From sequence record PZ445489.1: a DNA stretch of 64,000 nt; one strand, written 5' to 3'. This document shows positions 19,999 through 64,000 of the stretch, piece after piece. The translations under genes and the position numbers were made by a program. The notes beneath the pieces were generated by a model. That model ran no database searches, was not told the DNA's origin, and worked only from the letters and a program-made list of their open reading frames with translations. The stretch comes from a phage. How positions within the stretch are numbered: the stretch's first letter is position 1; each line of letters opens with the position of its first letter.

Positions 19999-20421
19999 AT
20001 GAGTACTGAAAATAGAGTTATAGACTTAGTAATAGACGAAAATGTACCATATGGTTTAATGATGCAGTTTTTAGACGTTGATGATAGTACTTATCCGCCT
20101 ACAGATACTCCAGTTAACTTAACTGGATATTCTCTAAGAGGTACTGTAAAAAATAGTCTAGATGAGAATGCGGAGATATTAGCATCTTTTACTACTAAAA
20201 TTATTGATGCTGCTCAAGGGGCTGTAGCTATAAGTTTGCCAGTAGAATCTGTGGAAAATATAGGAGCTAGAGCATCTAAAGATAGAGATAAATATAACCC
20301 TCGTCAGCGATTCGCAGGATACTATGATATAATTATGACTAGAGATGTTATAGGATCTGCAATTAGCTCCTTTCGTATAATGGAGGGTAAAGTATTTATC
20401 AGTGATGGGGTAACTAAATAA
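19999..20421 (+). CDS. Collar protein (p132-like)
   Basis: 140 aa ORF between pb4-like gene and tail fibre gene. Confidence 0.55.
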
Positions 20422-23189: not shown

Positions 23190-23207
23190 TGTATACATAG
23201 TAAAAAG

Positions 23208-23241
23208 AAACCCCAGCGAACAAAATCCGCTGGGGTTTTTC
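23208..23241. terminator. Bidirectional rho-independent terminator between convergent late and early modules
   Basis: CCCCAGCG-AACAAAATC-CGCTGGGG hairpin flanked by A-run on one side and TTTTT on the other. Confidence 0.8.
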
Positions 23242-23246
23242 TATAA

Positions 23247-23507
23247 CTAGCTTCTACAACCTTCTATAATACCAAGATTATAAATAGTTAATAGTATTTT
23301 TAAATGCTCAGTATCCGTATTAGTACAAAGATCCACAAAACCTTCAGGATCCCAGAAAATAACATTACCTTCTTTATCTGTTTTTAGTACGACCGTTTCT
23401 GGTTCAGTAGTTTTAATCTGATAAGTTGACGTATTAGTATCAATACCTACCATATTAGGATCGGTAAAATTATTTGCTTCCTGAACTTCCAAATCCGCCT
23501 TCACCAC
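23247..23507 (-). CDS. Hypothetical small protein (start uncertain)
   Basis: 86 aa ORF downstream of dUTPase; 38-nt overlap with dUTPase suggests a later start may be used. Confidence 0.35.
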   Translation of the reverse strand: MVKADLEVQEANNFTDPNMVGIDTNTSTYQIKTTEPETVVLKTDKEGNVIFWDPEGFVDLCTNTDTEHLKILLTIYNLGIIEGCRS

Positions 23508-23916
23508 GATTAGTCTCCCCTAGTTCGTCAACGATTTCAAAATTATGAGTTGAGTAGTGTGGTACTACTACTAGCTGACAAAGTCTTTCAAAATTCTCCA
23601 GAGTTTGTATTTCAGAACCGTAGTTATAAAGGTTCATCTTAATAGTACCACGATAGTCTGAGTCGATCACTCCTGCGGTATTTGCAATCATCAAATGACG
23701 TTTACCTAAAGAACTACGAGGAACCACCAAACCGAACCAACCTCGCGGAATTTCTACCGCGACACCGGTGTCAATCATTAGGGATTTGCCTGGTGCAATA
23801 GCTCGTAAGTCTGCGGCAGGGTTAGTACCAAAGAATGCTCGCAGATCCATACCCGCGGCATCTTCGGAACCAATCTTAGGCATACAATCTGGATGAGTTA
23901 ATTTAATTTTAATCAT
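23470..23916 (-). CDS. dut: dUTP pyrophosphatase (dUTPase)
   Basis: 148 aa; AAGMDL, GLVVPRSSL, GVIDSDYRG and C-terminal RGEGGFGSSG motifs. Confidence 0.9.
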   Translation of the reverse strand: MIKIKLTHPDCMPKIGSEDAAGMDLRAFFGTNPAADLRAIAPGKSLMIDTGVAVEIPRGWFGLVVPRSSLGKRHLMIANTAGVIDSDYRGTIKMNLYNYGSEIQTLENFERLCQLVVVPHYSTHNFEIVDELGETNRGEGGFGSSGSK

Positions 23917-30730: not shown

Positions 30731-31224
30731 AATTTTATTCTAAGTCTAGGAATTTCAGGCTCCTCTTGATGGGCTTGATAAATAACAGGGCTATTATTTA
30801 CCAGAATATAGCTTATGTAAGCTGGAACATAGGATAATACAAATGGATATGGAACTTTAGCCACATAGCATTGGTATTTTCCATTATAAATTCTAGCTGA
30901 ATGCAAAACTTTAGAGGTGACAACATCATAGAACGTAGTTTTCTTCCAATTAATAAGATTTCCATCAGAATCTATAAATTGGTTACGCTTTGACCCCACT
31001 AATTGAGACAACATTGATATTCTACCCCTAATAGGATAGAGCTTGTATGGTAATTCTTTCCGTTTCTCAAATAGAATAAGCCTACGTTGAGAAAACGTGC
31101 CAGGCAACTTCCTGTTATCTAGCACATATTTATTATATCTTGTTGTAATTACGGAATAATCACCTTCTTGCTCAATTGATACAAATGCCCGTAACGCATA
31201 GACGGGCAATTTGAAATTAAGCAC
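30727..31224 (-). CDS. Hypothetical protein
   Basis: 165 aa ORF between helicase and polymerase genes; no confident motif. Confidence 0.45.
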   Translation of the reverse strand: MLNFKLPVYALRAFVSIEQEGDYSVITTRYNKYVLDNRKLPGTFSQRRLILFEKRKELPYKLYPIRGRISMLSQLVGSKRNQFIDSDGNLINWKKTTFYDVVTSKVLHSARIYNGKYQCYVAKVPYPFVLSYVPAYISYILVNNSPVIYQAHQEEPEIPRLRIKL

Positions 31225-33784
31225 CGAGAATCCTTTTCACGTTATCCAGATCTTTACATACAGCAATAAACTTATCATCCTTGTACTTGCTATGATCTGG
31301 ATGCTCTTTATCCATTGCAGCTAGTTTCTTATACTCGAACTCTGCATCAAGTAATACACCCTTGACATAACGAGTATATTCATCATCATCAATACAAGCG
31401 ATTGATGGATGCTGTTTCTTCATCTTACCACAGGAGTAGTCACGAGAACCTCCAGCCTCAGAATCAGAATCAATACCAATCGGACAGCCAGGGATACTGA
31501 TACCACGGTCTTTCTGAATATTACGAATCAGGATTTCATTGTATTGGTCGATCAAATCCTCACGAACAATAGCAACTACGGAGTCATGAACCAGCATAAC
31601 AACCTTCATCTCTTGTTCTAGGCCAAGAGAAATGATCTCATTATCTGCATCTACCGCACCTAAAAGGAGGCTATCAGAAGAAGCAGACTGAATGATTGCG
31701 TTAAATCCAGAACGGATTTCTTCACCCTGAACACCACGGTCTTCGGAGTGGATATTATGCAGACGACGTTTACGACCAAAGTGACTATAGATAAATCCAT
31801 GATTCTTGATCTGATCGTGGCACTTATCAATCCAACGCTTAAGCTGCGGGAACTGACCGAAGTAAGTTTCAATGTACTCTTTAGCATCTGCAACAGTACA
31901 CTCTACAAACGGTTCGCCTGTCTTAGCAGCCTGTTCCAGAAGAGCTTCGTTAACAGAATGAGCTACTTTAGCTGGGCCAGAACCATACAGAATACCAAAG
32001 GTGATTGCTTTAGCTGCTTGACGCAGAGCTGGGAATAACTTTTTAACATCACGAGGTTCGCATTGGAGCTTAAATACCATGTGTGCGATGTTAGAGTGGA
32101 AGTCAGGGTATTTATCAGGTTCATTTCTCATGTTGATAAATACCTGTTGCATATTTCTATCACCAGATAGAACAGCAGCATAATAAACTTCCGCAGTTGT
32201 TAAGTCCCATGCGATTACACGGTATCCAGGTGGTGCAACCACACAACCCTTGATAATAGATTCATCACGAGGTAACTGTTGCAGGTTCAGTTTACCAGAA
32301 GAACTCAGACGACCAGAAGTAGTCATGTGTTCGTGGAAGCCAGTACGAATGCAACCATCAGCATCAATGCTCAGAAGAATCTTCTCAACGTAAGTAGAGA
32401 TCAGCTTAGTCAGCTTACGAATCTCTAGTAGAGTCTTAGCAATTGGATGCTGCGTAGACAATTCGTTCAGAGCTTCTGCATCTGTAGAGTCTGCTCCAGT
32501 ATCCGTCAATTTACCTGTTGGGGTTAAGCCAACATAATCAAACAGAAGAACACGTAGCTGCTTAACAGAGTTTGGGTTAAACGCTTCGTTCTGATCTTTC
32601 TCTAGCTGAACGACTTCTGGATAAGTATACAGCTTCTCACGAGCTTTATTCAGATTATGAGTTAACTGGTACTGAGCTTCTTTTAAACGATCAATAGAAA
32701 TAGGTACACCACGATCCTCAACACGCTGGAGAAATACACAACCAGGCATTAGAACATCATAATACAGACTGCAAAGTTTTTCATTCTTCTCAATTTTTGG
32801 TAAGAAGAAGTTGTGCAAACGTATGGTAGCATCTGTATCTTTTGCAGCGTAAGGCCACATAATATCAAACGGAATTAAATCATATGTGAAATCTTCTTTC
32901 TTGATTTTATGTGCTTTGCAGTAATCATCCTTGAACTTATCTAGTTCAAAGTCATAGTCGCCCATATCGGTATACTTCATTGCTAGAGATTTCAAGCCAT
33001 GAGTACCACGACGCTCATCTAGAACATAATGCTGCAACATAGTATCATGGAGCCTGCGTTCTTTATGTGCTTTATCAAAAGTAAGTCCCAGATGGTACTT
33101 ATAAAAGTGCATATCAAACTTCAAGTTGTGAAAAACAATAGTGTGGTTTTCACTATCCAGAATTTTCTGGAGATAATATACTGCAACCTCTGTGAGACAA
33201 TCAGAATCGATATATACACCCTGGTACTCTTGGTGAGATATAGAAACACCAAGCAGATAACCATCTCGACAGTATAGTGCTGAGGTTTCAGAGTCAAATG
33301 CGACAGGTCCGATAACCATATTATACACCATCTTGATATATTCTTCCGCCTCGTCAGGGTCAGTAATAGGACGGTAATCACCAGCTTTTGCAATCTTCTC
33401 ACGACCATTGATAATATCGTGGATATTCTCTACTGTTGCATCGAAAACTGGTTTCATTTCAGGCTTAAAGTGTAACTGGGCTGGGCTGATACTCGCAATC
33501 CAGTTAGCATATCCATTATACTCTACACGTTTACCAGTATAATCACCAATGCCTTTCTTACCTGCGAAATACAGGAAAGGTTCAGCACCTACTAGTATAA
33601 CAAAATCATAATCATTCGGATCAAATGGGTTTTCTGGTGTTCCAATAGTAATGTGCTTTTTAAGCAAACGACCAGATAACTTCTCGTTACACATATGGAA
33701 TACATCAACTTCCTCGCCGTATAGCTGGAAATGTTTATCATACCGAGTGTTATTTAGAGCTTTATCAACTACTGCGATTTTCAA
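31217..33784 (-). CDS. DNA polymerase, family A, with 3'-5' exonuclease domain
   Basis: 855 aa; exo motif FDSETS, Pol A motif B KAITFGILYG and motif C VHDS. Confidence 0.9.
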   Translation of the reverse strand: MKIAVVDKALNNTRYDKHFQLYGEEVDVFHMCNEKLSGRLLKKHITIGTPENPFDPNDYDFVILVGAEPFLYFAGKKGIGDYTGKRVEYNGYANWIASISPAQLHFKPEMKPVFDATVENIHDIINGREKIAKAGDYRPITDPDEAEEYIKMVYNMVIGPVAFDSETSALYCRDGYLLGVSISHQEYQGVYIDSDCLTEVAVYYLQKILDSENHTIVFHNLKFDMHFYKYHLGLTFDKAHKERRLHDTMLQHYVLDERRGTHGLKSLAMKYTDMGDYDFELDKFKDDYCKAHKIKKEDFTYDLIPFDIMWPYAAKDTDATIRLHNFFLPKIEKNEKLCSLYYDVLMPGCVFLQRVEDRGVPISIDRLKEAQYQLTHNLNKAREKLYTYPEVVQLEKDQNEAFNPNSVKQLRVLLFDYVGLTPTGKLTDTGADSTDAEALNELSTQHPIAKTLLEIRKLTKLISTYVEKILLSIDADGCIRTGFHEHMTTSGRLSSSGKLNLQQLPRDESIIKGCVVAPPGYRVIAWDLTTAEVYYAAVLSGDRNMQQVFINMRNEPDKYPDFHSNIAHMVFKLQCEPRDVKKLFPALRQAAKAITFGILYGSGPAKVAHSVNEALLEQAAKTGEPFVECTVADAKEYIETYFGQFPQLKRWIDKCHDQIKNHGFIYSHFGRKRRLHNIHSEDRGVQGEEIRSGFNAIIQSASSDSLLLGAVDADNEIISLGLEQEMKVVMLVHDSVVAIVREDLIDQYNEILIRNIQKDRGISIPGCPIGIDSDSEAGGSRDYSCGKMKKQHPSIACIDDDEYTRYVKGVLLDAEFEYKKLAAMDKEHPDHSKYKDDKFIAVCKDLDNVKRILGA

Positions 33785-33877
33785 ATTTAATCTCCTCTTG
33801 GTAAGTAAGTATAACTTCAGTGTTTCTTCTCTAACTTACCAATATATTATATCAAAATATTGGGATAATAGCAAATA

Positions 33878-40813: not shown

Positions 40814-40842
40814 ATTATATCAAGAATTGTAGGATTAAGCAA
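40814..40842 (-). promoter_or_regulatory. Early sigma70-type promoter
   Basis: TTGCTT-17 nt-TATAAT. Confidence 0.55.
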
Positions 40843-40862
40843 CTGAAATTTTTCGGTAATTG

Positions 40863-41132
40863 CTACACATCTAGCTCAACAATCTCCCAATCATCTGCTA
40901 GAATTTCTTCTAAAGTTAACTCTACATCTTGCTTATGTGATCGTTTAAAATTTTCAAAAATACCTGTGGGCAATGGTGCAAAACTTTTGATAGTATCATT
41001 GTCAACATTAAACTCAAAAAGAAGCATAAAGTTTTTATCGTTTTTCCAGCAATCTCGCTGAAGATATTTTATGTCTCCAGCTTTAAGCAAATCTGTTAGC
41101 TTACTCACGACGTTTTCCTTTTTCTTTATCAA
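40863..41132 (-). CDS. Hypothetical protein
   Basis: 89 aa ORF overlapping end of upstream gene. Confidence 0.4.
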   Translation of the reverse strand: MIKKKENVVSKLTDLLKAGDIKYLQRDCWKNDKNFMLLFEFNVDNDTIKSFAPLPTGIFENFKRSHKQDVELTLEEILADDWEIVELDV

Positions 41133-41805
41133 GTTTCAGGGCAGCCTTAACAGCCTCATTAATCAACGTAATAATTTCTTCACGAGTCCACTTATACCCT
41201 AGAGATTTTACGTCAACCCCTAACTTTTCCAGATGTTTAACAGAAGCCAGCTCGTAATTCATATAATGAACGTTCTGTTGTTTGCTTTCTGATAGAAGCC
41301 ATACACGGTAACAACCAACAGGATTATCCATTGCTTTTTTGATTTCACCAATACACTGGTATCCAGGAACCCAAACAAGTTCTCCAACCTCAAATTCTTC
41401 TGCCACAGCATCGTCAGGAATAATTGGAGGATTCAATGGATCTACAATATCGTTCAAACGAAGTAGAGCACCATATCGTTCCAGAACAGATTTAACCATT
41501 GCTACAGAGCGGTAATTACGATCGGCAATTTCTTCAAAAGAATCACCAGATAGGTACTGTTCAATAACGTTGGCCAACTCAATACCTTCAATGAGTGTAC
41601 CACGTTTCTTTTTCTTCATTTCGGCAACTTGAATCTGGCGGTCTTGCCACTCTTCAATCATCCTTTCCATAGTCGGATTGGAAGATACGCCGAGCATTTC
41701 ACAAGCTGCTTTCTTGGTACCACCGTTCTCCAGATGCTCTATAACCTTTTTAAAGACTTCATCAGGGATTTCATGGATATGTTTCTTTCTGCGAGAACCA
41801 GCCAT
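41101..41805 (-). CDS. Early protein with putative HTH (first gene of N25-type transcript)
   Basis: 234 aa starting MAGSRRKKHIHEIPDEVFKK; expressed from the promoter at 41837..41865. Confidence 0.6.
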   Translation of the reverse strand: MAGSRRKKHIHEIPDEVFKKVIEHLENGGTKKAACEMLGVSSNPTMERMIEEWQDRQIQVAEMKKKKRGTLIEGIELANVIEQYLSGDSFEEIADRNYRSVAMVKSVLERYGALLRLNDIVDPLNPPIIPDDAVAEEFEVGELVWVPGYQCIGEIKKAMDNPVGCYRVWLLSESKQQNVHYMNYELASVKHLEKLGVDVKSLGYKWTREEIITLINEAVKAALKLDKEKGKRRE

Positions 41806-41836
41806 ATTTAAACTCCTCTCTCAAATTTATGAATCT

Positions 41837-41865
41837 ATTATACAGAAAAATTTTCCTGAAAGCAA
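41837..41865 (-). promoter_or_regulatory. Strong early promoter matching the T5 PN25 core
   Basis: - strand reads TTGCTTTCAGGAAAATTTTTCTGTATAATAGATTCATAAATTTGAGAGAGGAG, as I recall the N25 promoter used in expression vectors. Confidence 0.85.
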
Positions 41866-42117: not shown

Positions 42118-44881
42118 CTAGCTCTGACATTGCTTCATCATGCATATGTTTTTCCTCGTCAGTCATGAACTTATAAGGAATTGGCATACACTCGATTTTA
42201 CAATAGGTTCTGTACCAGTCTACAATATTTTCAGTGTTCATATCCTTACCAATACCCATCATACCAAGATACATTCTTGCATATTTTGGGTTAGCACTCT
42301 GACCTGTTTTAAGGAAGAAATCTTTCTTCTTACCTTTCAGAGCTTCTATGAATGGTTTGATAGTGACATTTGAACACTTCTTAATATCTTCCCAGAACAT
42401 CTCGTGCATTTTATGGAAGAATGCCGCTCGATCATTCGGTTTATCCTTGATATACTGTTCAACATGCTCAACTGTTACATCTTTAATAGACTCAAGATGA
42501 TAATAGCGAACAAGAAGTAGTTTAGCTTCATACGCATCCGCATGACGTGGAGCACAATAATCCGGAGTTGAATGTAGAATAGCTTTGATTCGCTCTTCTG
42601 TGTATTCTTTACCAGCACCTTCAATAGTTCCCCAGCTTTCGCTGAAAATATCAATAGTTGCACCCTGATCAAGCAAGTAATAACGTAAAGTACTAGTATA
42701 GTTCCTAGATTCCAGCTCTCTGCGACGTGCGTATAATTGCTGTGCTAACTCCGGCCAACCTTCATCAATATTATATTGCTCAGAACCTGCAGAGAACCCA
42801 CTAGTGGATTTATCAATAAAATAATAGATATTCTGAGCACCACGGTCGCGCCTGATTGCTTGGAAACGCATGTTTGGCGCTTGGTTACTAGTTCTAGTGA
42901 TAACGAATACGTTATCAAAATAGTTGAAGTCAACACCACTCGTTACGGATGGACTACATAATAAGCAATCAATTTGTTGATCAATTAGCTCATTAGTTGT
43001 GTAATCCAGAATACGTCTAATATCTACATCAGATGTAGAGTTTGAGTGGATTTCCTTAACTAACGCACCCGTATTACGACGCAATGCCATGCCCTTCTCA
43101 TTCAGTTCATCTGGACCACAGTCAGATACTAGGATAGATTTCTCACCCATCTCTAGAGAAGTCTGAAGTGCAACCCAAATACTGGACTCATCAGGGAACT
43201 CATAAGCATGAGCTTTTGACAGCATTTTACGGTGATGATTGTAAAATGCAACCGGTTTATCAAACTCAATCAAAGAACCATATGCTTCAATTGTTTCTGC
43301 ACTAATATCCCCATCAGATAATATAATGATTTTTGCAGTTGCAAGAATGTCCCGAAGAACCTGAATACATTCACGACGTTGTTTAACAACCGGGGCGAAT
43401 AATAGGTCATTCATTACAGCGTCACATTCATCGATAAAGATTGCATCAATTTGACCAATAAAACTCTTGAACTTATGCAAAGAGTGAATAGTTGTGGACA
43501 TACGGTCAATAGCACCACGCTTAAAATTAAGCATATCTACAGACTTATCATATTGTCCTGCACTAAATTTCTTAGCATTTGAAGATACCAGTGCTCGAGT
43601 ATTGGTAATTGCTAAGAAATTACCTTTAATAACTCCTGAATCCAGCCAACGCACAACCGCTGTAGTTTTACCTGTACCTAGACTTGCTTTTACAAAAGTC
43701 ATATAACCTTCTGGTGGCACGGTATTTAATTTCAAGAAGTTATCAGTTTCTAGAGAATTAGTTTCTAGCTTTTTAAGTGGAATACCTTTTAAAACATCTG
43801 GTATATCACGTTTAGAATTATTAACAAACGCTTTCAGAGCCTGTTTACGACCGTTGTTAAAATAATCTTGAATATTACGACTATTATCTTTAGTTGCAAT
43901 ATACTCAGATAAAGCTGGGCGGATCTCCTTCTCTAGCCAGCCAAAATCTACACCATCCTCTAGTGCTCGGTGATAGAGTTTAGGAATAATACGTAGATAT
44001 ACACCATCCTCAGCTTCTTCTAATTCGCTGATAGTTTCCTCTACTTTATCAGAGGCAGCTTTTTTACCTTTAATTTGGTCGAGTAAAGAATAGAACTCCT
44101 CCTTAAACTCACCTCTAGTTGTTTCATAGTCAACTAGATTATTAGGTAAATTTACTTTTGAGCCTTTAACAAATACCAGACGTGAAGTACCCTCCGCTTT
44201 AAACGGATCTACTATACCATCAGTAAATAAAGGATCTGCAAAGTAATGGAGCTGTACGGAAGAGTAATAAGCTAAGTCGGCAATATCAAAGCCATACTTT
44301 TGTCTACTACTTTCGTTGATAGATGTAAATAAGAACTTGATTTGACCCTGAGTTACTTTAACATTAGATTCTAGTATTAAGTGCATTCGGATACCTGGTT
44401 TTAGCCCAGCCGAAGATGACGCATGAGCGATAAACCCTGCATCAAGAGGAAACATATCCTCACTAATACTATTTAACATCCTAATAATATGTCGAGCCAT
44501 GCCAACAAGATCAAACTTGTTACAACCTCCTGTATCTACAATACCATCCACATCCATTGCGATTATATGACTTGGATTAGATACATTAAAGTTGCCCTTC
44601 TTACGTCGCACATTATTTTTAGGTGCAAGACATCGACCTCGTACCGCAACGATATGAGGGTCAGACGTTAAACGTCTCATAAGAGGAAGCATTTCTACTA
44701 GGGTTTGAGGATCAACTTCATCAATTACATCAAACTTGAAGGGCATTGAAGCTGGTTTACCTTCAGGATGCTTTGAGGAAAATCTTTTAGCAAAAAGATA
44801 ATCTTCTGCTTTAACTTCTCGCCAATTGCCTGTGGCTAAATCGCGATGAAATCCTGCATGACCTTGTAGGATTGAAAACAC
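42092..44881 (-). CDS. Large replication-associated ATPase/helicase (origin-binding-protein-like)
   Basis: Walker A ASLGTGKTT and Walker B AIFIDECD; start placed at GTG with AGGAG 7 nt upstream (track gives TTG at 44959). Confidence 0.6.
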   Translation of the reverse strand: MFSILQGHAGFHRDLATGNWREVKAEDYLFAKRFSSKHPEGKPASMPFKFDVIDEVDPQTLVEMLPLMRRLTSDPHIVAVRGRCLAPKNNVRRKKGNFNVSNPSHIIAMDVDGIVDTGGCNKFDLVGMARHIIRMLNSISEDMFPLDAGFIAHASSSAGLKPGIRMHLILESNVKVTQGQIKFLFTSINESSRQKYGFDIADLAYYSSVQLHYFADPLFTDGIVDPFKAEGTSRLVFVKGSKVNLPNNLVDYETTRGEFKEEFYSLLDQIKGKKAASDKVEETISELEEAEDGVYLRIIPKLYHRALEDGVDFGWLEKEIRPALSEYIATKDNSRNIQDYFNNGRKQALKAFVNNSKRDIPDVLKGIPLKKLETNSLETDNFLKLNTVPPEGYMTFVKASLGTGKTTAVVRWLDSGVIKGNFLAITNTRALVSSNAKKFSAGQYDKSVDMLNFKRGAIDRMSTTIHSLHKFKSFIGQIDAIFIDECDAVMNDLLFAPVVKQRRECIQVLRDILATAKIIILSDGDISAETIEAYGSLIEFDKPVAFYNHHRKMLSKAHAYEFPDESSIWVALQTSLEMGEKSILVSDCGPDELNEKGMALRRNTGALVKEIHSNSTSDVDIRRILDYTTNELIDQQIDCLLCSPSVTSGVDFNYFDNVFVITRTSNQAPNMRFQAIRRDRGAQNIYYFIDKSTSGFSAGSEQYNIDEGWPELAQQLYARRRELESRNYTSTLRYYLLDQGATIDIFSESWGTIEGAGKEYTEERIKAILHSTPDYCAPRHADAYEAKLLLVRYYHLESIKDVTVEHVEQYIKDKPNDRAAFFHKMHEMFWEDIKKCSNVTIKPFIEALKGKKKDFFLKTGQSANPKYARMYLGMMGIGKDMNTENIVDWYRTYCKIECMPIPYKFMTDEEKHMHDEAMSELGARNDSEE

Positions 44882-48691: not shown

Positions 48692-48720
48692 TTATAAATC
48701 TATTATATATAAATTTTTGG
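48692..48720 (-). promoter_or_regulatory. Strong early promoter, near-duplicate of the N25-type promoter
   Basis: TTGCTTTCAGCCAAAAATTTATATATAATAGATTTATAAATTTGAGAGGAG on - strand. Confidence 0.75.
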
Positions 48721-48772
48721 CTGAAAGCAAATAAAATAAAAGCCAGGTCGACTAGCAACCCGGCTGATTAGC

Positions 48773-50897: not shown

Positions 50898-50926
50898 TTG
50901 CTTTTTACTGTATATATTGGTATAAT
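50898..50926 (+). promoter_or_regulatory. Sigma70-type promoter upstream of phoH-like gene
   Basis: TTGCTT-17 nt-TATAAT. Confidence 0.6.
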
Positions 50927-50999
50927 ATATTTGTAAGTTGATAAACAAGATCTTTTTGTTGATCCTCTGTTAGCGAAGTACACTATAGGAGTGTTATTT

Positions 51000-52002: not shown

Positions 52003-52035
52003 GGCCTGGGTATGAAAATACTCGGGCCTTTTCTA
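52003..52035 (+). terminator. Rho-independent terminator upstream of nrdA promoter
   Basis: CCTGGGTAT-GAAA-ATACTCGGG hairpin (with G-U pairs) followed by TTTTC. Confidence 0.55.
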
Positions 52036-52049
52036 TCAGAAAATTTTAT

Positions 52050-52078
52050 TTGCCTAATGACCAATAATAATGTAGAAT
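52050..52078 (+). promoter_or_regulatory. Sigma70-type promoter for nrdA
   Basis: TTGCCT-17 nt-TAGAAT. Confidence 0.55.
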
Positions 52079-52116
52079 ATTCCTTAAATCCTGATAACTA
52101 TAAAAAGGAAAGCCAA

Positions 52117-54447
52117 ATGAGCCATCGCATTGAAAAAGTAATTAAACGTGACGGTACTGTAGAAGACTTTGCTCCTGAAAAACTCAATGGTTGGGCAGAG
52201 TATGGTTGCAAAACAGTTGATGTAAGTTGGTCAGCCATTACTATGGCTGCTCAAAAAACTCTACCTAAAGGGGTTGTAGATTCCGACACTCTGATGGACG
52301 CATTAATTAAAGCTGCTGAAAGTCTTATCAAAGATAATCCAGCATACGATGTGCCAGCAAAGGAATTACGTCTTGCGCAAATGCGTAAACGCCTTTATGA
52401 TTCTTTCGAACCACCCTCTCTACGCTTCTTCCATGACCATATGGTTAGCGTAGGTGCATGGGAAGACATGAGTGCATGGATTACCGATGAGCAATTTGAA
52501 GCTCTGAATCAGGTTATAGACCACGATCGTGACCGTCTTTTTACTAGTGGTGGACTGAAGCAGTTCTTTGATAAGTATTCCCGTCGTAACATAGCCACTG
52601 GTGAAATTTACGAAACCCCGCAGTTTGCCTACATGGGTATGGCAATGGCGATGTTATCTCAACCTAACTGGACAATTCTAGATGCAATCGACCTCTACAA
52701 CGCAATGTCACTCCACAAAATCAACGTTCCTACGCCGCCACTGGTTGGTCTGCGCTCTAGTGACCGTGGATTTGCTAGTTGCTGCCTCGTGGATTCCACT
52801 GACACGTTGGATTCAATCGACACCGCCGAGCACATCGTCTTCAAAATGGTCGCAGCCAGAGCGGGAATCGGGTATCATCTTGAAAGCCGATCAATTGCTG
52901 ATCCGGTGCGAAATGGGGCATTCCCACATTCCGGAAAACTGCCATATTATCGACACATTGACCGCTCAGTAAAGGCCAATACTCAGCAAACTCGTGGTGG
53001 TTCTGCCACAGTGTCTTATCCATACTTCGACCCTGAAATCATTCAATTGATGCAGGTTAAGCAACAACGTGCTACAGATGAGAATAAAATCGATAAGATG
53101 GATTATTCTCTGAGCTTTAACAATCTTTTGTTAAAACGTTATCTTAAAAACGAGGATATTACGCTAATGTCATACTTCTATGCTCCAGAAGTTCATGAAG
53201 CGTTTTATAGTGATGACGAGGCTAAATTTGAAGAAATCTACGTGGCAGCGGAGAAACGTGTGGCATCTCTTACAAAGATCGACCACGAAGGAAAAACAGT
53301 TCCTGCAGCTCCTAAAGTCTCTGCAAAAGAAATCCTAGATACTTGGCTACGTATCCGAATGGAAACAGGACGTATGTATGCTCATCACATCGGGGAATCT
53401 AATCGTCACGGTAACTTCCTTGATCCAATCCGTATGACAAACCTTTGTGTTGAAATTACTCAGCCTACGCGCCCGTTCCATCATATCACAGAACTGTATA
53501 AGACAAAAGAGCAGCTTGATCAAATGAAGCCGGAGGATATTGGTGAAGTATCTCTGTGTAACTTAGGTGGTGTTGTACTGGGGCGCATGGAATCTCTGGC
53601 TGAGTGGGAAAAAACTTGCTACATCCTCCTGAAATTCGTTGATACAATTATTGAAATTCAGGATTATCCGTTCCCAACTATGGAATATACGGCTAAGAAA
53701 CGTCGTAATGTTGGTATTGGCCTAATGAACGCAGCAGGTGCAATGGCAGCAGAAGGTCTGGCTTATGAAGGTATTGAAGCCCGTAACTGGATTCACCGTG
53801 AGGCTGAAAAACTGTCCTACTTCCTGCATAAAGCCTCTGTACGCCTAGCTAAAGAACAGGGTGCATGTGAGTGGTTTGATCGTACTAAACCATCTAAAGG
53901 AATTCTGGTAATCGACACGTACAAGAAAACTGTTGATGAACTGGTATCCGTAGGTCTAGAAATGGATTGGGAGTCTCTGCGTGCAGATATTCTGAAATAC
54001 GGTATGCGTAACTCTGTTCTGACTGCTCAGATGCCAGGAGAAAGTTCTTCTGTTCTGTTAGGTGTTACTAATTCTATTGAACCGCCTCGTAAGATTGTAT
54101 CTATCAAGGGTAGTGCAGTGAATAAAGTAATTGCAATTGCTCCGGGTGCAACCGATTGGGAAACGTTAATGAGCTATAAACTGGCTTATGATGTAGATCG
54201 TATCGAGTGGATCAAATGGGTAGCAACTATGCAGAAATTCTTCAGTCAGTCTATCAGTACGAATATGTACTATGACTACACCAAGTTTGAGAATGAAATC
54301 ATTCCTGGTCCAGTAGTAGTTCGTGATTTCATGACTGCTGTTAAGTATGGGTGGAAGACTTTCTACTACGCAAACTTCAACACCGCTAATGGTGGTGGTG
54401 CAGGGGAAGAATCCGCAGGCTGCGCTTCTGGTGGTTGTACCATCTAA
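52117..54447 (+). CDS. nrdA: Ribonucleoside-diphosphate reductase alpha subunit (class Ia)
   Basis: N-terminal ATP-cone, catalytic cysteines, C-terminal CASGGC tail; start at ATG 52117 with AAGGAA RBS (track extension covers terminator and promoter). Confidence 0.9.
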   Translation: MSHRIEKVIKRDGTVEDFAPEKLNGWAEYGCKTVDVSWSAITMAAQKTLPKGVVDSDTLMDALIKAAESLIKDNPAYDVPAKELRLAQMRKRLYDSFEPPSLRFFHDHMVSVGAWEDMSAWITDEQFEALNQVIDHDRDRLFTSGGLKQFFDKYSRRNIATGEIYETPQFAYMGMAMAMLSQPNWTILDAIDLYNAMSLHKINVPTPPLVGLRSSDRGFASCCLVDSTDTLDSIDTAEHIVFKMVAARAGIGYHLESRSIADPVRNGAFPHSGKLPYYRHIDRSVKANTQQTRGGSATVSYPYFDPEIIQLMQVKQQRATDENKIDKMDYSLSFNNLLLKRYLKNEDITLMSYFYAPEVHEAFYSDDEAKFEEIYVAAEKRVASLTKIDHEGKTVPAAPKVSAKEILDTWLRIRMETGRMYAHHIGESNRHGNFLDPIRMTNLCVEITQPTRPFHHITELYKTKEQLDQMKPEDIGEVSLCNLGGVVLGRMESLAEWEKTCYILLKFVDTIIEIQDYPFPTMEYTAKKRRNVGIGLMNAAGAMAAEGLAYEGIEARNWIHREAEKLSYFLHKASVRLAKEQGACEWFDRTKPSKGILVIDTYKKTVDELVSVGLEMDWESLRADILKYGMRNSVLTAQMPGESSSVLLGVTNSIEPPRKIVSIKGSAVNKVIAIAPGATDWETLMSYKLAYDVDRIEWIKWVATMQKFFSQSISTNMYYDYTKFENEIIPGPVVVRDFMTAVKYGWKTFYYANFNTANGGGAGEESAGCASGGCTI

Positions 54448-57611: not shown

Positions 57612-57640
57612 TTGCTTATTTAGTGAAATTTAAATATAAT
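57612..57640 (+). promoter_or_regulatory. Early sigma70-type promoter
   Basis: TTGCTT-17 nt-TATAAT with downstream TTTTATAAATTGGAGG. Confidence 0.65.
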
Positions 57641-57665
57641 ATATTTTATAAATTGGAGGTATACA

Positions 57666-58794: not shown

Positions 58795-58823
58795 TTGCTA
58801 AACGCTTCAAATTCTTGTATAAT
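58795..58823 (+). promoter_or_regulatory. Early sigma70-type promoter
   Basis: TTGCTA-17 nt-TATAAT with downstream TTCATAAATTGAT box. Confidence 0.65.
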
Positions 58824-58861
58824 ATACTTCATAAATTGATAAACAAAAAGGAAAACAAATA

Positions 58862-60666: not shown

Positions 60667-60695
60667 TTGCTTCCGGCCCCAAAATTCTGTATAAT
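60667..60695 (+). promoter_or_regulatory. Early sigma70-type promoter
   Basis: TTGCTT-17 nt-TATAAT with downstream TTCATAAATTTGAGA box. Confidence 0.65.
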
Positions 60696-60735
60696 ATATT
60701 CATAAATTTGAGAAAACAATAAAAGGAAAACAAAT

Positions 60736-60971: not shown

Positions 60972-61610
60972 ATGACTACTCGTATCTCTAAAACTCGCGC
61001 TCTGGCAACTATCAAATCTCTGGAAGCTAAAATCCGTAAAGCTACTGAACAACAGCTTCTGATCGCTGTTGGTGAAGGTAAGGATAAAAATAAGGTTGTA
61101 GTTGGCGCTGCAATCGAAGTAGACGATCTATCTGCTCGTATTAAGGCAGATTTCCAGTCTCTGCTGGATATGATGTCCCAGCGTGATCGTATCAAAGCTG
61201 CTCTGATTAAGAGCAATGCGGAAACAATCGTTGAGATTGGCTCTCGTAAGATGACTGTTGCGGAAGCAATTGAAGCTAAGCGTTCTATGGAACTTAAAGC
61301 TCAACTGCTGGCTAACATGCGTAAGCAGTTCCATGCTGCTACGGTTAAGTTTAACACGCAGAAAGTACAGTTTGATGCTAAATATGAGCGTTTGCAGGAT
61401 AGCATGGCTACCCGCGATAAGAAAACTTCCGAAGATGAAGTTAAAATGCAGCTCAACCTGCTGGAACTCAAGAATACTCCATTCTTGATTGATCCGCTGG
61501 AACTGGAGAAGCTGATTAAGCAGCATGACGAGGAATATCAGGACTTTGCAACAAATGTTGACTTTGTTCTGTCCGAGTCTAACGCCTCTACCTTCATTGA
61601 AGTAGAGTAA
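60972..61610 (+). CDS. Hypothetical protein (coiled-coil rich)
   Basis: 212 aa, host-optimal codon usage, AGGAAG RBS. Confidence 0.5.
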   Translation: MTTRISKTRALATIKSLEAKIRKATEQQLLIAVGEGKDKNKVVVGAAIEVDDLSARIKADFQSLLDMMSQRDRIKAALIKSNAETIVEIGSRKMTVAEAIEAKRSMELKAQLLANMRKQFHAATVKFNTQKVQFDAKYERLQDSMATRDKKTSEDEVKMQLNLLELKNTPFLIDPLELEKLIKQHDEEYQDFATNVDFVLSESNASTFIEVE

Positions 61611-61993
61611 TAATTTAAAAGCTAGTAAATCGGTAGACGAAAGCCCAAGCATCTTACCTCGCAGCAGCGGTTGAAATACGAGGTTAAATAAGACCGCTGA
61701 CCATACTATAAGGTATAATCTATTGGAGATTATGTTTATTACATCAGACATTTAATCTGACACGTAAAAACAAAGCGTCGTTGATATTACCGACACAACT
61801 TCAAAGATCAACATTTAAGTATGAAAGCTGAAAAGTTTAAAGAACTCAAACTTCTAAACTTCTAAAGCTAAAAGATGCAAAGTATTCGTTGATGATTCAA
61901 ACCCTAGATCAAAGGTACATGGCTCATAAGATATGGCCTGTGGCGCCTCTAGGCTGTTTATCGGTTTACTAGTTTCACAATTTAAAAATGTAT

Positions 61994-62022
61994 TTGCTAA
62001 TTTACTAAATTATATGTATAAT
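61994..62022 (+). promoter_or_regulatory. Early sigma70-type promoter
   Basis: TTGCTA-17 nt-TATAAT. Confidence 0.6.
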
Positions 62023-62052
62023 ATATTTTTAAATTGATGAAACGAGGCTATT

Positions 62053-62370
62053 ATGACTTTTCATATTTTGATTGATGATGTGCGTAATCTTCACGGAATG
62101 GACATTATCATTCGAACCCCAGAAGCCGCTGTCGAGTTTCTGAATAAAACTGATACCACAGGCCACTTCGTTTATATGGATAATGACTTGGCTGTAGATG
62201 GTATGGAAGGTTATCAAATTCTTCGTTTACTCTTAGAATTTGGGCAGAGACCAAAGAAAGTGGTACTAGTAACCTCGAACCCAGTAGCTAAGCAACATAT
62301 GCGTAATGATTTGCTTGACTTAGGGTACAAAGAAAACCCCAATCGTGTTGAATATGATTGGCAGGAGTAA
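62053..62370 (+). CDS. Standalone receiver (REC/CheY)-like domain protein
   Basis: 105 aa; ILIDDV, VYMDNDL...GMEGYQIL and VVLVTSNP segments resemble response-regulator receiver motifs. Confidence 0.4.
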   Translation: MTFHILIDDVRNLHGMDIIIRTPEAAVEFLNKTDTTGHFVYMDNDLAVDGMEGYQILRLLLEFGQRPKKVVLVTSNPVAKQHMRNDLLDLGYKENPNRVEYDWQE

Positions 62371-62375
62371 AAAGA

Positions 62376-62825
62376 ATGAAGGCAGCTTTGCTTTTAGTAG
62401 CTGCCCTTACCTTCAGCTTTAGTAGTCAGGCATCGCACGATGCAAAAGAAATAGATTGCATTGCTAAAAATATCTATTTCGAAAGTCGTGGTGAGGGCAT
62501 AAAGGGAATGACGGCGATTGCACACGTTACTAAAAACCGTGTAAACTCCGGTAAATTCCCAGATTCCTACTGTAAAGTAGTATATCAGTCTAACCAGTTC
62601 TCTTGGGTATCTAAGAGACCAAAAGTTGATAAAACTGATGAGGCTTGGCAAACCGCTAAGAATTTAGCTAGAGTGATATACTACGTTGATTTACCACAAG
62701 ATCCTACACATGGAGCACTATACTTCCATAGTGGTAAAGATAAACCTTACTGGACAAAGAAGTTTAAGAAAACAACTAAGATTAAGGGACATACGTTTTA
62801 TAAACCTGTTGTCACTAAAACTTAA
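62376..62825 (+). CDS. Secreted cell-wall hydrolase-like protein (SleB-type) with signal peptide
   Basis: N-terminal MKAALLLVAALTFSFSSQA signal peptide; IAKNIYFESRGEG...AIAHVTKNR...QFSW core; AGGAG RBS. Confidence 0.55.
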   Translation: MKAALLLVAALTFSFSSQASHDAKEIDCIAKNIYFESRGEGIKGMTAIAHVTKNRVNSGKFPDSYCKVVYQSNQFSWVSKRPKVDKTDEAWQTAKNLARVIYYVDLPQDPTHGALYFHSGKDKPYWTKKFKKTTKIKGHTFYKPVVTKT

Positions 62826-62833
62826 AAATTTAC

Positions 62834-62862
62834 TTGCTTAAATACTTAAATTTCCGTATAAT
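62834..62862 (+). promoter_or_regulatory. Early sigma70-type promoter
   Basis: TTGCTT-17 nt-TATAAT. Confidence 0.6.
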
Positions 62863-62893
62863 ACTTCCATAAATTAATGAGAGGAAGCGAAAT

Positions 62894-63063
62894 ATGAAAT
62901 CAGTTGTAATTATTGGTGTTAACACTCGCGGTATTCGTACTACGAAAATTGTTAAAACTTCTAACGTTGCTGAGATCACTACGAACCCTAAAAAGTTTGA
63001 TTTCGCCAAAGTCTCAGCAGTTATGACAGAACAATCTTTTAACCAAGCGTTAGGAATGAAATA
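62894..63063 (+). CDS. Hypothetical small protein (56 aa, below ORF-track cutoff)
   Basis: ATG with GAGGAAG RBS after promoter; stop overlaps next ATG. Confidence 0.3.
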
Positions 63064-63507
63064 ATGGAAGAGAATATTTTAGATGTTTTGCGTAGAGCTT
63101 TGCAGGATTCTAAGTTTAATGGTTCTGATAAAGAAGTCGCTAAAAGCTATCAGACCATAATCGGGGATCTTCAGCGTATTAATAAAGATTTCATCACTTC
63201 TGAACAATTTGTGTCTTATCTCAAAGCTCAACTAAAAAGCATTAACCAGATGAAAGCTAAACTTCATGGTCAAGATCTTGATAGTTATAGCTTGCAGTCC
63301 GCTCAGTATGAGTACATTCTAAATAAGTGGTTGCAGGAGTATCTGCCCCCTCAGTTATCTGATACTGAGATTCGTAAATACTTTGCAGAATTAGTTAAGC
63401 TAAACCCTGGAATTACAAAAGGTATGCTGATGAAAGCGATTAAGGAAGAATTTCCTGGGCGTTATGATGGTGGTACTGCTGCTCAGATTGCTGGTGAATT
63501 TAATTAA
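63064..63507 (+). CDS. GatB/YqeY-domain-like protein
   Basis: 147 aa; C-terminal GMLMKAIKEEFPGRYDGGTAAQIAGEF resembles YqeY-type segment. Confidence 0.45.
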   Translation: MEENILDVLRRALQDSKFNGSDKEVAKSYQTIIGDLQRINKDFITSEQFVSYLKAQLKSINQMKAKLHGQDLDSYSLQSAQYEYILNKWLQEYLPPQLSDTEIRKYFAELVKLNPGITKGMLMKAIKEEFPGRYDGGTAAQIAGEFN

Positions 63508-63515
63508 AAATTTAT

Positions 63516-63544
63516 TTGCTAAATGCTTATAAATTCTGTATAAT
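63516..63544 (+). promoter_or_regulatory. Early sigma70-type promoter driving an ORF-free region
   Basis: TTGCTA-17 nt-TATAAT with downstream TTCATAAATTAGAGAAC box; no ORF of at least 60 aa follows on + strand to window end. Confidence 0.6.
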
Positions 63545-64000
63545 ATATTCATAAATTAGAGAACAGCGAGCCGATTACGCTGAACTTGTCTTAATGTAAG
63601 ATGCGTCGAGCACTAAGATTCGTTGAATAGAGTCGGTAGGTTAGTTGTAAAACTAGTACACAGGGGGCGGCAATCCCGGTTAGTGGCTAGAACGTGTAAA
63701 ATGAGGCGTCTGAAACCTCTCCCCTAAACTCTTCTCTAATTTATAAATAGTGGGGTGTGGAAATCACTTATGTAGTAACACTGCCGTCCTAGTATAATTG
63801 GTATTATCAAGCCGTAACTGGTGGAAGATATAGATTCGAATCCTACGGTCGGTAAGAACTGGATAACTGATGCTTTTAACGTAAAAGCTTCCGAGGTTAG
63901 TTGCGCACTGCCTAAACCACGCGGTAGTTGGTTCCAGGCTAACCAACCAGTCTGCTGAATAGTTTTATTACGATTTAACTATGTCCAGGCTAAAGAAGAA

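What the first reader, a model, noticed from the sequence alone, without database searches (positions are those of the whole stretch)
62376..62825. Secreted SleB-type cell-wall hydrolase-like protein expressed early
The ORF has a clear Sec-type signal peptide and a SleB-like hydrolase core. The window contains no canonical holin-endolysin pair. An early, exported peptidoglycan hydrolase could help genome entry, superinfection exclusion or lysis timing.
Basis: partly seen in the sequence, partly recalled or inferred. Interest (0 to 1): 0.35.

Follow-up and report, generated by a model that had tools for sequence, protein, structure and literature searches.

The report
T5-type phage exported SleB-like hydrolase
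This is the well-conserved, already annotated T5.083-type gene of T5-like phages: a small cell-wall-cutting enzyme with an export signal, made from an early promoter, and a second, untested wall enzyme alongside the phage's ordinary holin/endolysin pair, which lies just outside this window.

Summary
The ORF at 62376-62825 (+) encodes a 149-aa protein. It has an N-terminal Sec-type signal sequence and a full-length Pfam Hydrolase_2 (SleB/CwlJ) domain (E=2e-25). Its high-confidence model matches only the SleB catalytic domains in the PDB.

The window is a T5-like phage (Tequintavirus, about 98% identical to NBSal005, FFH1 and SP15). The gene is the orthologue of T5.083. It is annotated in hundreds of genomes as "SleB", "cell wall hydrolase" or "endolysin", and has been noted in print.

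"Early" is supported by inference only. A T5 early-type promoter (TTGCTA-N17-TATAAT-ATATT) at 61994-62027 heads a two-gene operon made of a cREC gene and this gene.

"No holin-endolysin pair in the window" is true but is an effect of where the window ends. In relatives the M15 endolysin, holin and spanin lie about 20 kb beyond the right end.

A role in genome entry is unlikely. An exported protein cannot join cytoplasmic virion assembly, and the tape-measure protein pb2 (10686-14366) carries T5's entry muralytic domain.

The most likely role is a holin-independent periplasmic glycan-strand cleaver that assists lysis. It is under purifying selection (dN/dS about 0.11) and scored "Not Fit" in a low-sensitivity T5 knock-down screen. 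This is ordinary and already known; only the function is untested.

The parts
61994..62027 (+). T5 early-type sigma-70 promoter: TTGCTA (-35), 17-nt spacer, TATAAT (-10), ATATT discriminator
   Evidence: Consensus scan scores 10/12. The pattern TTG-N20-TATAATATATT gives 11 matches in the window against 0.16 expected. ATATT is the discriminator reported for all known T5 early promoters (PMC7472727).
62053..62370 (+). First cistron of the operon: 105-aa cREC_REC (cyclic-phosphate processing receiver) domain protein, the T5.084 orthologue. It has no evident functional link to the hydrolase.
   Evidence: Pfam PF20274, E=1.5e-14. Its stop codon lies 5 nt before the hydrolase ATG. The order T5.084 then T5.083 is given in CRISPRi-ART supplement file 8.
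62363..62367 (+). Shine-Dalgarno sequence AGGAG, 8 nt upstream of the ATG
   Evidence: Read directly from the sequence.
62376..62432 (+). Predicted cleavable Sec signal peptide, residues 1-19 (MKAALLLVAALTFSFSSQA, cleavage before S20)
   Evidence: Hydropathy and the -3/-1 rule. The n/h/c layout recurs across 40 homologues.
62433..62825 (+). Mature SleB/CwlJ-type (Hydrolase_2) domain, about 130 aa, pI 9.7, plus stop codon. Glu36 codon at 62481-62483; Cys28 at 62457-62459; Cys66 at 62571-62573.
   Evidence: Pfam, PHROG and PDB matches. AF2 model with pLDDT 91 and Foldseek matches to 4F55/4FET. E36 and C66 are invariant and C28 is at least 90% conserved. pI.

Best explanation
The gene is the orthologue of phage T5 gene T5.083, a core gene of T5-like phages (Demerecviridae). 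It encodes a small single-domain peptidoglycan-cleaving enzyme of the SleB/CwlJ (Pfam Hydrolase_2) fold.

Proposed mechanism:
- Transcription starts at the early-type promoter at 61994-62027, and the gene is the second cistron after a cREC gene.
- The precursor is exported by the Sec pathway and cleaved by signal peptidase I after Ala19.
- The mature ~15-kDa basic protein folds in the periplasm, probably with a Cys28-Cys66 disulfide.
- Glu36 serves as the catalytic acid that cuts the MurNAc-GlcNAc glycan bond, by lytic transglycosylase chemistry as in SleB.
- Because it reaches the wall without a holin, it is loaded into the periplasm before lysis.
- It then acts as an accessory muralytic enzyme. 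It cuts glycan strands while the canonical, holin-dependent M15 L-alanyl-D-glutamate peptidase (encoded outside the window) cuts the peptide stems.

Supported by computation here: the ORF, domain, fold, conserved residues, signal-peptide features, promoter signature, conservation and purifying selection.

Inferred: export and cleavage, the disulfide, the bond cleaved, the timing of expression and the role in lysis.

The confidence of 0.6 is for the whole statement including the accessory-lysis role. For identity alone (an exported SleB-type wall hydrolase, T5.083 orthologue) I would put it at about 0.9.
For: Identity:
- Pfam Hydrolase_2 full length, E=2e-25. PHROG 938.
- SleB structures match by sequence and by fold. 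They are the only significant PDB matches, with target-normalised TM 0.72-0.79, using a model with pLDDT 91.
- The protein is 100% identical to that of T5_ev219 and 99% to FFH1 and others. T5.083 numbering comes.

Active site:
- E36 is invariant in 40/40 homologues and aligns with the first Glu of ESRGE in SleB.
- A catalytic Glu is essential in SleB and in a SleB-fold T6SS effector toxic to E. coli (PMC12331253; PMC11148199).

Export:
- n/h/c signal features with A at -1 are present in the window protein and its closest relatives, and an AXA-like site is found in most of the 40 homologues.
- A conserved Cys pair is present that the Bacillus SleB sequence lacks at the aligned positions.

Activity on Gram-negative walls:
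- Aeromonas phage ASG01 Cwh (signal peptide + Hydrolase_2) lyses E. coli with no other phage gene. Alanine mutants at its conserved residues lose or reduce lysis (PMC10975977).
- All 11 of its conserved residues have counterparts here at identical spacing: C28, E36, I48, V51, N54, R55, P62, C66, V68, V69, S76.

Early expression:
- Promoter signature. Location in the early-gene region.

The gene is functional and distinct from the main endolysin:
- dN/dS = 0.11 against Epseptimavirus Stitch.
- About 520 phage records carry it at >=60% identity, about the same number as carry the T5-type M15 endolysin. Both appear to be retained, although co-occurrence was not checked record by record.
Against: - No experiment on T5.083 or any T5-like orthologue was found. 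A full-text search for 'T5.083' returned nothing.
- In the CRISPRi-ART T5 screen, T5.083 knock-down was 'Not Fit', meaning no measurable effect. Any contribution to lysis is therefore dispensable in the laboratory. That screen also scored many genes expected to be required (tail-fibre, receptor-binding, endolysin and several replication genes) as Not Fit, so it is insensitive.
- An active wall hydrolase exported for tens of minutes before lysis should endanger the cell. How premature lysis is avoided is not explained by anything seen here.
- SleB itself prefers muramic-delta-lactam cortex (my recollection), which E. coli lacks, so the substrate and bond specificity are assumptions.
- In distant relatives the gene sits among nucleotide-metabolism genes rather than lysis genes. 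That is equally compatible with a non-lysis role.
Confidence: 0.6

Rival explanations
1. SAR (signal-anchor-release) endolysin. The N-terminal segment is not cleaved. It tethers the enzyme, inactive, to the inner membrane until holin-induced depolarisation releases it. The conserved Cys pair could take part in activation, as in P1 Lyz.
For: This would explain how an early, Sec-targeted hydrolase fails to lyse the cell prematurely. Predicted signal peptides on lysins of Gram-negative phages are commonly read as SAR domains, and Hydrolase_2 is a dominant catalytic domain in that group (PMC8223927). The N-terminal segment is rich in Ala, Ser and Thr. Some distant homologues have hydrophobic stretches of 18-22 residues, long enough to span a membrane.
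Against: In the T5-like clade the hydrophobic core is only about 13 residues. It is followed by a polar c-region with small residues at -3 and -1 (SQA|S, SHA|T, AYA|T, VQA|Q). That site is kept while the surrounding sequence drifts, which is the pattern expected of a site cut by signal peptidase I. No Cys or catalytic residue lies inside the hydrophobic segment.
Confidence: 0.15
2. Periplasmic wall-remodelling factor unrelated to final lysis. Early limited glycan cleavage might change the sacculus for the phage's benefit, for example by tolerating cell enlargement, interfering with superinfecting phages, or releasing anhydromuropeptides.
For: The promoter is early-type. In three distant uncultured phage contigs the homologue lies next to ThyX, metallophosphatase, UvdE and dGTPase-type genes rather than lysis or structural genes. 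It is retained alongside a complete canonical lysis cassette.
Against: No data support any specific remodelling function. In T5 the canonical endolysin and holin are themselves in the early region, so early placement does not separate lysis from non-lysis genes. [quoted passage not shown] The only tested homologue of this architecture behaves as a lysin.
Confidence: 0.15
3. Entry or virion-associated hydrolase, the first reader's 'genome entry' idea. The enzyme would digest the wall for incoming DNA.
For: Hydrolase_2 domains do occur inside very large (>1000 aa) phage proteins of unchecked function (Foldseek BFVD hits to 1076-1278-aa proteins).
Against: Here it is a free 149-aa protein with a secretion signal, encoded among early genes about 38 kb from the nearest tail gene. 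Export to the periplasm separates it from cytoplasmic virion assembly. In T5 the muralytic entry function is assigned to pb2C.
Confidence: 0.03
4. Catalytically dead or decaying relic with no present function.
For: It scored 'Not Fit' in the T5 CRISPRi-ART screen.
Against: dN/dS is 0.11. Ten residues are invariant across homologues down to 30% identity, including the catalytic Glu. The gene is full length and intact even in the Klebsiella Sugarlandvirus lineage at 64-67% identity. It is present in about 520 records.
Confidence: 0.04

Closest known systems
Phage T5 gene T5.083 and its orthologues (annotated 'SleB putative cell wall hydrolase', 'spore cortex-lytic enzyme precursor' or 'endolysin' in Tequintavirus and Epseptimavirus genomes)
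   Same: It is the same gene. Identity is 100% to T5_ev219, 99% to FFH1, Spc35 and fp01, and about 88% to Epseptimavirus. The neighbours are the same: cREC gene upstream, DUF7616 and YqeY-like genes downstream.
   Different: Nothing of substance. No functional study of any orthologue was found.
Aeromonas phage ASG01 Cwh (signal peptide + Hydrolase_2), PMC10975977
   Same: The architecture and size class are the same. All 11 residues the authors list as conserved have counterparts here at identical spacing, including the Cys pair and the Glu. ASG01 Cwh shows that this kind of protein can lyse E. coli without a holin.
   Different: ASG01 is a myovirus in which no holin or other endolysin was identified, so Cwh is presented as the main lysin. 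Here a canonical cassette coexists with the gene. I did not retrieve the ASG01 sequence, so the correspondence rests on residue numbering rather than an alignment.
Bacillus SleB / CwlJ germination-specific cortex-lytic enzymes (PDB 4F55, 4FET)
   Same: The catalytic-domain fold is the same (target-normalised TM 0.72-0.79, 28-30% identity) and the ESRGE motif with the catalytic Glu is shared.
   Different: This protein has no N-terminal PG-binding domain. It scores far below the SleB equivalog cutoff (50 against 236.5 bits). It has a conserved Cys pair that the aligned SleB sequence lacks. Its host is a Gram-negative bacterium without spore cortex.
Sec-exported and SAR endolysins (for example Oenococcus phage fOg44 Lys44, P1 Lyz)
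   Same: Access to the wall is holin-independent, through an N-terminal Sec-targeting sequence. The concept is cited in PMC10975977 and PMC8223927.
   Different: The catalytic folds differ. Those enzymes are the phage's main endolysin, whereas this one is a second enzyme. Whether it needs membrane depolarisation for activity is unknown.
T5 endolysin Lys (T5.040, M15 L-alanyl-D-glutamate peptidase) with holin T5.041
   Same: Both are phage-encoded wall-degrading enzymes located in the T5 early region.
   Different: The fold and the bond cleaved are unrelated. Lys has no signal sequence and sits next to its holin. It lies about 20 kb away and outside this window.

Membership tests
Pfam PF07486 Hydrolase_2 (SleB/CwlJ cell-wall hydrolase domain) | Sequence match above the curated gathering score over the whole domain | tested here: met
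   89.7 bits against a cutoff of 27, profile positions 1-100 of 100.
Pfam PF07486 Hydrolase_2 (SleB/CwlJ cell-wall hydrolase domain) | SleB catalytic-domain fold | tested here: met
   AF2 model with pLDDT 91.3. Foldseek matches 4F55 and 4FET at E about 1.5e-5, prob 1.00, target-normalised TM 0.72-0.79, with no other significant PDB hit.
Pfam PF07486 Hydrolase_2 (SleB/CwlJ cell-wall hydrolase domain) | Catalytic glutamate conserved | tested here: met
   E36 is invariant in 40/40 homologues and aligns with the first Glu of ESRGE in 4F55. The residue number in SleB (E157 in B. cereus) is my recollection. The primary papers were not available.
Pfam PF07486 Hydrolase_2 (SleB/CwlJ cell-wall hydrolase domain) | Muralytic (lytic transglycosylase) activity | not testable with these tools
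   Needs a zymogram and muropeptide analysis. Only indirect support exists, from ASG01 Cwh and the T6SS effector T6EC3.
SleB proper (NCBIfam TIGR02869 equivalog, spore cortex-lytic enzyme) | Score above the equivalog cutoff; N-terminal PG-binding domain plus catalytic domain | tested here: not met
   50.3 bits against a cutoff of 236.5. Only profile positions 79-201 are matched and there is no PG-binding domain. It is SleB-like, not SleB.
Sec-dependent secreted protein with a signal peptidase I site | Positively charged n-region, hydrophobic h-region of 7-15 residues, small residues at -3 and -1 | tested here: met
   MK / AALLLVAALTFSF / SSQA|S. The same layout occurs in about 38 of 40 homologues. 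The test is rule-based; no trained predictor was available.
Sec-dependent secreted protein with a signal peptidase I site | Actual export and cleavage | not testable with these tools
   Needs a PhoA fusion, cell fractionation or N-terminal sequencing.
SAR endolysin | Uncleaved, weakly hydrophobic N-terminal transmembrane segment of about 18-20 or more residues without a signal peptidase site | tested here: not met
   The hydrophobic core is about 13 residues and a conserved AXA-type site follows it. This is sequence-based only.
Canonical phage lysis cassette endolysin | Encoded next to a holin and/or spanin | tested here: not met
   The neighbours are cREC, DUF7616 and YqeY-like genes. In FFH1 the holin, endolysin and spanin lie about 20 kb away, and none is in the window.
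T5 early gene class | Served by a promoter with the early-class ATATT discriminator | tested here: met
   TTGCTA-N17-TATAAT-ATATT at 61994-62027. The pattern occurs 11 times in the window against 0.16 expected. The criterion comes from PMC7472727.
T5 early gene class | Transcript appears in the early wave of infection | not testable with these tools
   No per-gene time-course was available. The Bas33 RNA-seq supplements held no entry for it.

The most novel reading that the evidence does not exclude
T5-like phages may run two endolysins with independent routes to the wall. One is a holin-gated cytoplasmic M15 peptidase. The other is this Sec-exported SleB-type glycan cleaver, loaded into the periplasm from early in infection and kept harmless until the holin collapses the membrane potential. 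The two would back each other up. That would fit the CRISPRi-ART T5 screen, where the holin was 'Fit' but knock-down of either lys (T5.040) or T5.083 alone was 'Not Fit'.
Probability: 0.25. Interest if true: 0.4.

Novelty: already known. Interest (0 to 1): 0.15.

Why it matters
It matters little as a discovery. The gene is annotated in hundreds of T5-like genomes, and its presence beside the M15 endolysin has been pointed out in print (PMC3326045; PMC11180984).

The open point is functional. No one appears to have tested what a Sec-exported wall hydrolase made from an early promoter does in a phage that already has a full holin, endolysin and spanin set. Nor is it known how the cell survives it until lysis.

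An answer would add a detail to T5 lysis biology and could be useful for enzybiotic design, since this is a small, basic lysin that needs no holin. For genome annotation the practical lesson is that the 'endolysin' label given to this gene by PHROG-based pipelines should not be read as 'the' endolysin of T5-like phages.

Tried and rejected
- Searched the window for the canonical lysis genes by tblastn with FFH1 endolysin, holin and spanin. There were no hits better than E=4. The first two Python attempts failed because of a file-sync issue.
- Looked for any publication on T5.083. None was found. Searches for 'T5 + SleB' gave only two genome papers.
- Tried to read the two SleB structure papers to confirm the catalytic Glu numbering. 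Neither is held.
- Looked for per-gene expression or proteome data for the orthologue in the Bas33 RNA-seq paper supplements. Nothing was found. The HIDEN-SEQ preprint does not cover T5-like phages. The phiR2-01 proteogenomics text does not mention the gene.
- Suspected from tblastn coverage (80%) that the Klebsiella Sugarlandvirus copy is C-terminally truncated. Translation shows a complete 153-aa protein with all conserved residues, so this was rejected.
- Suspected that the metagenomic group P0035-P0051 is the ASG01/pAh6-C Cwh group, because the residue numbering coincides exactly. tblastn shows no phage record at >=60% identity to P0035, so this could not be confirmed.
- Checked whether the upstream gene could be a partner or immunity protein. 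It is a cytoplasmic cREC receiver-domain protein of RNA-repair contexts, and it is absent next to the distant homologues, so this was rejected.
- tRNA and Rfam scans of 61000-64000 found nothing.

Full report
**What is there.** The ATG is at 62376 and the stop codon ends at 62825, giving 149 aa. An AGGAG ribosome-binding site lies 8 nt upstream of the ATG (62363-62367). The stop codon of the preceding gene (62368-62370) is only 5 nt before the ATG. The longer TTG-initiated version in the mechanical ORF list (62358) has no such site. It also disagrees with the 450-bp annotation used in the related genomes examined.

**Which genome.** The last 4 kb of the window are 98.0-98.6% identical to Tequintavirus genomes such as NBSal005, vB_EcoS_FFH1, SP15 and VEc33. 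In all, 450 phage records match. The window is in the reverse of the conventional T5 orientation. Its layout is:
- Terminase (1-1317), major head protein (4231-5607), tape-measure protein pb2 (10686-14366) and tail proteins (15-23 kb).
- Replication genes, including DNA polymerase at 31217-33784 (-).
- NrdA (52012-54447), followed by short rightward early operons up to the edge of the tRNA region.

The gene is the orthologue of T5.083 (T5 coordinates 42290-42739, reverse; CRISPRi-ART supplement). Its protein is 100% identical to that of T5_ev219, where it is annotated 'SleB putative cell wall hydrolase'.

**The hydrolase domain.**
- Pfam Hydrolase_2 (PF07486) matches over its whole length at E=2.2e-25. 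PHROG 938 ('endolysin') matches at 5.5e-30.
- The NCBIfam SleB equivalog is hit only over its catalytic half and far below its cutoff (50 against 236.5 bits). The protein is SleB-like, not SleB, and it lacks SleB's N-terminal peptidoglycan-binding domain.
- The SleB catalytic domains 4F55 and 4FET are the only meaningful PDB sequence matches. Their motif YGESRGE aligns with YFESRGE here.
- An AlphaFold2 model built on a 40-sequence alignment has mean pLDDT 91.3. In Foldseek it matches only those SleB structures (target-normalised TM 0.72-0.79, rmsd 2.3-2.8 A). Against predicted viral structures it matches dozens of phage 'SleB/cell wall hydrolase' proteins.
- Across 40 homologues down to 30% identity, ten residues are invariant: Y34, E36, G44, R55, C66, V68, V69, Q74, H139 and F141. 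C28 is conserved in at least 90%.
- E36 corresponds to the catalytic glutamate of SleB. The residue number in SleB is from memory. That a catalytic Glu is essential in SleB and in a SleB-fold T6SS toxin is stated in PMC12331253 and PMC11148199.

**The signal peptide.** Residues 1-19 have the classic layout: a charged n-region (MK), a 13-residue hydrophobic core (AALLLVAALTFSF) and a polar c-region ending S-Q-A before Ser20. The homologues have quite different N-terminal sequences. Even so, about 38 of 40 keep the same layout. In many of them A is at -1 and S, A, V or I at -3, a few residues before the conserved Cys. That conservation of form without sequence is good evidence for a functional, cleaved Sec signal. 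It argues against a signal-anchor-release domain in the T5-like clade. I had no trained predictor, so this is a rule-based call. The conserved Cys pair (C28, C66) is absent at the aligned positions of Bacillus SleB, which fits a disulfide formed in the periplasm.

**Experimental precedent.** Aeromonas phage ASG01 'Cwh' has a SignalP-predicted signal peptide plus a Hydrolase_2 domain. It lyses E. coli when expressed alone. Alanine substitutions at conserved residues abolish lysis (C34, P68, V57, V74) or reduce it (E42, N60, R61, C72, V75, S82) (PMC10975977). Every one of the 11 conserved residues those authors list has a counterpart in the window protein at identical spacing (offset -6). I did not obtain the ASG01 sequence itself, so this correspondence comes from numbering. 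Hydrolase_2 is also listed among the dominant catalytic domains of lysins from phages of Gram-negative hosts, a group with a high net positive charge (PMC8223927). The mature protein here has pI 9.7.

**Timing.**
- Klimuk et al. state that all T5 early promoters identified so far carry ATATT in the discriminator (PMC7472727).
- The pattern TTG-N20-TATAAT-ATATT, allowing one mismatch, occurs 11 times in the window against 0.16 expected.
- One hit, at 41832-41865 (-), has the sequence I recall for the classic early promoter PN25.
- Another, at 61994-62027 (+), lies 26 nt upstream of the cREC gene (62053-62370). The hydrolase gene follows directly, and no terminator-like site lies between them.

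The gene is therefore most likely the second cistron of a short early operon. The AKFV33 genome paper likewise places the lysozyme, holin and 'cell wall hydrolase SleB' in the early-gene region. This is inference from sequence. I found no transcript data for the gene.

**The 'missing' holin-endolysin pair.** The window indeed contains no homologue of the T5-type endolysin, holin or spanin. In FFH1, which is 98.4% identical over the window's last 4 kb, the endolysin (20301-20714), holin (20711-21367) and Rz-like spanin (23169-23618) lie about 20 kb downstream of the SleB-like gene (40842-41291). That is about 19 kb or more beyond the right end of this window. The T5-type M15 endolysin occurs at >=60% identity in about 527 phage records and the SleB-like gene in about 521. 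The two counts are nearly equal, which suggests that both genes are kept across the family. I did not check co-occurrence record by record. Others have already remarked on these 'multiple endolysin ORFs', one next to the holin and one SleB-type far from it (PMC11180984).

**Is the gene functional?** The gene is under purifying selection, with dN/dS = 0.11 against Epseptimavirus Stitch at 87% nucleotide identity. It is intact even in Klebsiella Sugarlandvirus at about 65% identity. In the genome-wide CRISPRi-ART screen of T5 it scored 'Not Fit'. So did the endolysin lys, while the holin C1 scored 'Fit'. That pattern would suit redundancy between the two wall enzymes. However, the screen also scored genes expected to be required (for example ltf, oad and N4) as Not Fit, so it is weak evidence.

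**Mechanism and rivals.**
- My best reading is a Sec-exported, signal-peptidase-processed, disulfide-stabilised periplasmic glycan-strand cleaver. It reaches the wall without the holin and assists the holin-dependent M15 peptidase at lysis.
- The main unexplained point is why an enzyme exported from early times does not lyse the cell prematurely. Possible answers are low expression, intrinsically limited activity on an intact energised sacculus, or SAR-like tethering. None could be tested here.
- The SAR rival is disfavoured by the short h-region and the conserved cleavage motif.
- A non-lysis remodelling role cannot be excluded. It is hinted at by three distant homologues (37-48% identity) on uncultured phage contigs of 63-94 kb. 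They sit at the head of operons with ThyX, metallophosphatase, UvdE and dGTPase-type genes, not with lysis or structural genes.
The protein is made only after the DNA carrying the gene is inside the cell, and it is exported away from virion assembly. T5's entry muralytic activity is assigned to the C-terminal fragment of pb2 (PMC10038345).

**Verdict.** The feature is an ordinary, already annotated core gene of T5-like phages. Its biochemical class is clear and its biological role is untested. Interest is low. The only mildly interesting open question is whether T5-like phages use two endolysins with different export routes.

Noticed in passing
window 29361-63549, 11 sites (e.g. 33841-33874 -, 41832-41865 -, 48697-48730 -, 50898-50931 +, 57612-57645 +, 58795-58828 +, 60667-60700 +, 61994-62027 +, 63516-63549 +): A TTGCTx-N17-TATAAT-ATATT promoter signature occurs 11 times against 0.16 expected. 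All sites lie in the replication/early half of the window and none in the structural half (1-24 kb). The site at 41832-41865 (-) has the sequence I recall for T5 promoter PN25 (TTGCTTTCAGGAAAATTTTTCTGTATAATAGATT).
   Followed up: partly
window 62053-62370 (+): The gene immediately upstream of the hydrolase encodes a cREC_REC (cyclic-phosphate processing receiver) domain protein (Pfam E=1.5e-14). A weakly YqeY-like gene (63064-63507; 25.4 bits, just under Pfam's 27-bit cutoff) and a DUF7616 gene (62894-63064) follow the hydrolase. This is an RNA/tRNA-repair-flavoured neighbourhood at the edge of the tRNA cluster. Public records annotate these genes inconsistently ('tRNA amidotransferase', 'recombination related exonuclease').
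   Followed up: partly
window 61611-62052: A 442-bp stretch has no ORF of note between the T5.085-like gene and the early promoter. tRNA and Rfam scans found nothing. Its purpose is unknown.
   Followed up: partly
window 63560-64000: This is an ORF-poor stretch after another early-type promoter (63516-63549). Several related records annotate a 'tRNA-OTHER' somewhere in the matching 4-kb region. ARAGORN and Rfam find no tRNA between 61000 and 64000.
   Followed up: partly
window 60972-61610 (+): This 212-aa ORF is annotated 'tail fiber protein' in many related records (PHROG 1491). It has no Pfam match and lies in the early region, about 38 kb from the nearest tail gene. The label is probably a propagated mis-annotation.
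   Followed up: no
T5 reference (CRISPRi-ART supplement file 16), not in the window: In the T5 knock-down screen the holin C1 is 'Fit', but both the canonical endolysin lys (T5.040) and the SleB-like T5.083 are 'Not Fit'. This is compatible with two redundant wall enzymes, or simply with low screen sensitivity.
   Followed up: partly
L003 3305-3748, L004 6001-6444, L005 6001-6480, L006 6001-6414: Distant signal-peptide + Hydrolase_2 homologues (37-48% identity) occur on uncultured phage contigs. Each sits at a divergent-transcription point next to ThyX, metallophosphatase, UvdE and dGTP-diphosphohydrolase-type genes. This is a recurring 'nucleotide-metabolism neighbourhood' rather than a lysis cassette.
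   Followed up: partly
window 62831-62865 (+): A promoter-like TTGCTT-N17-TATAAT lies directly after the hydrolase stop codon and before the DUF7616 gene. Its discriminator is ACTTC rather than the early-class ATATT. It fell below the consensus scanner's threshold.
   Followed up: no
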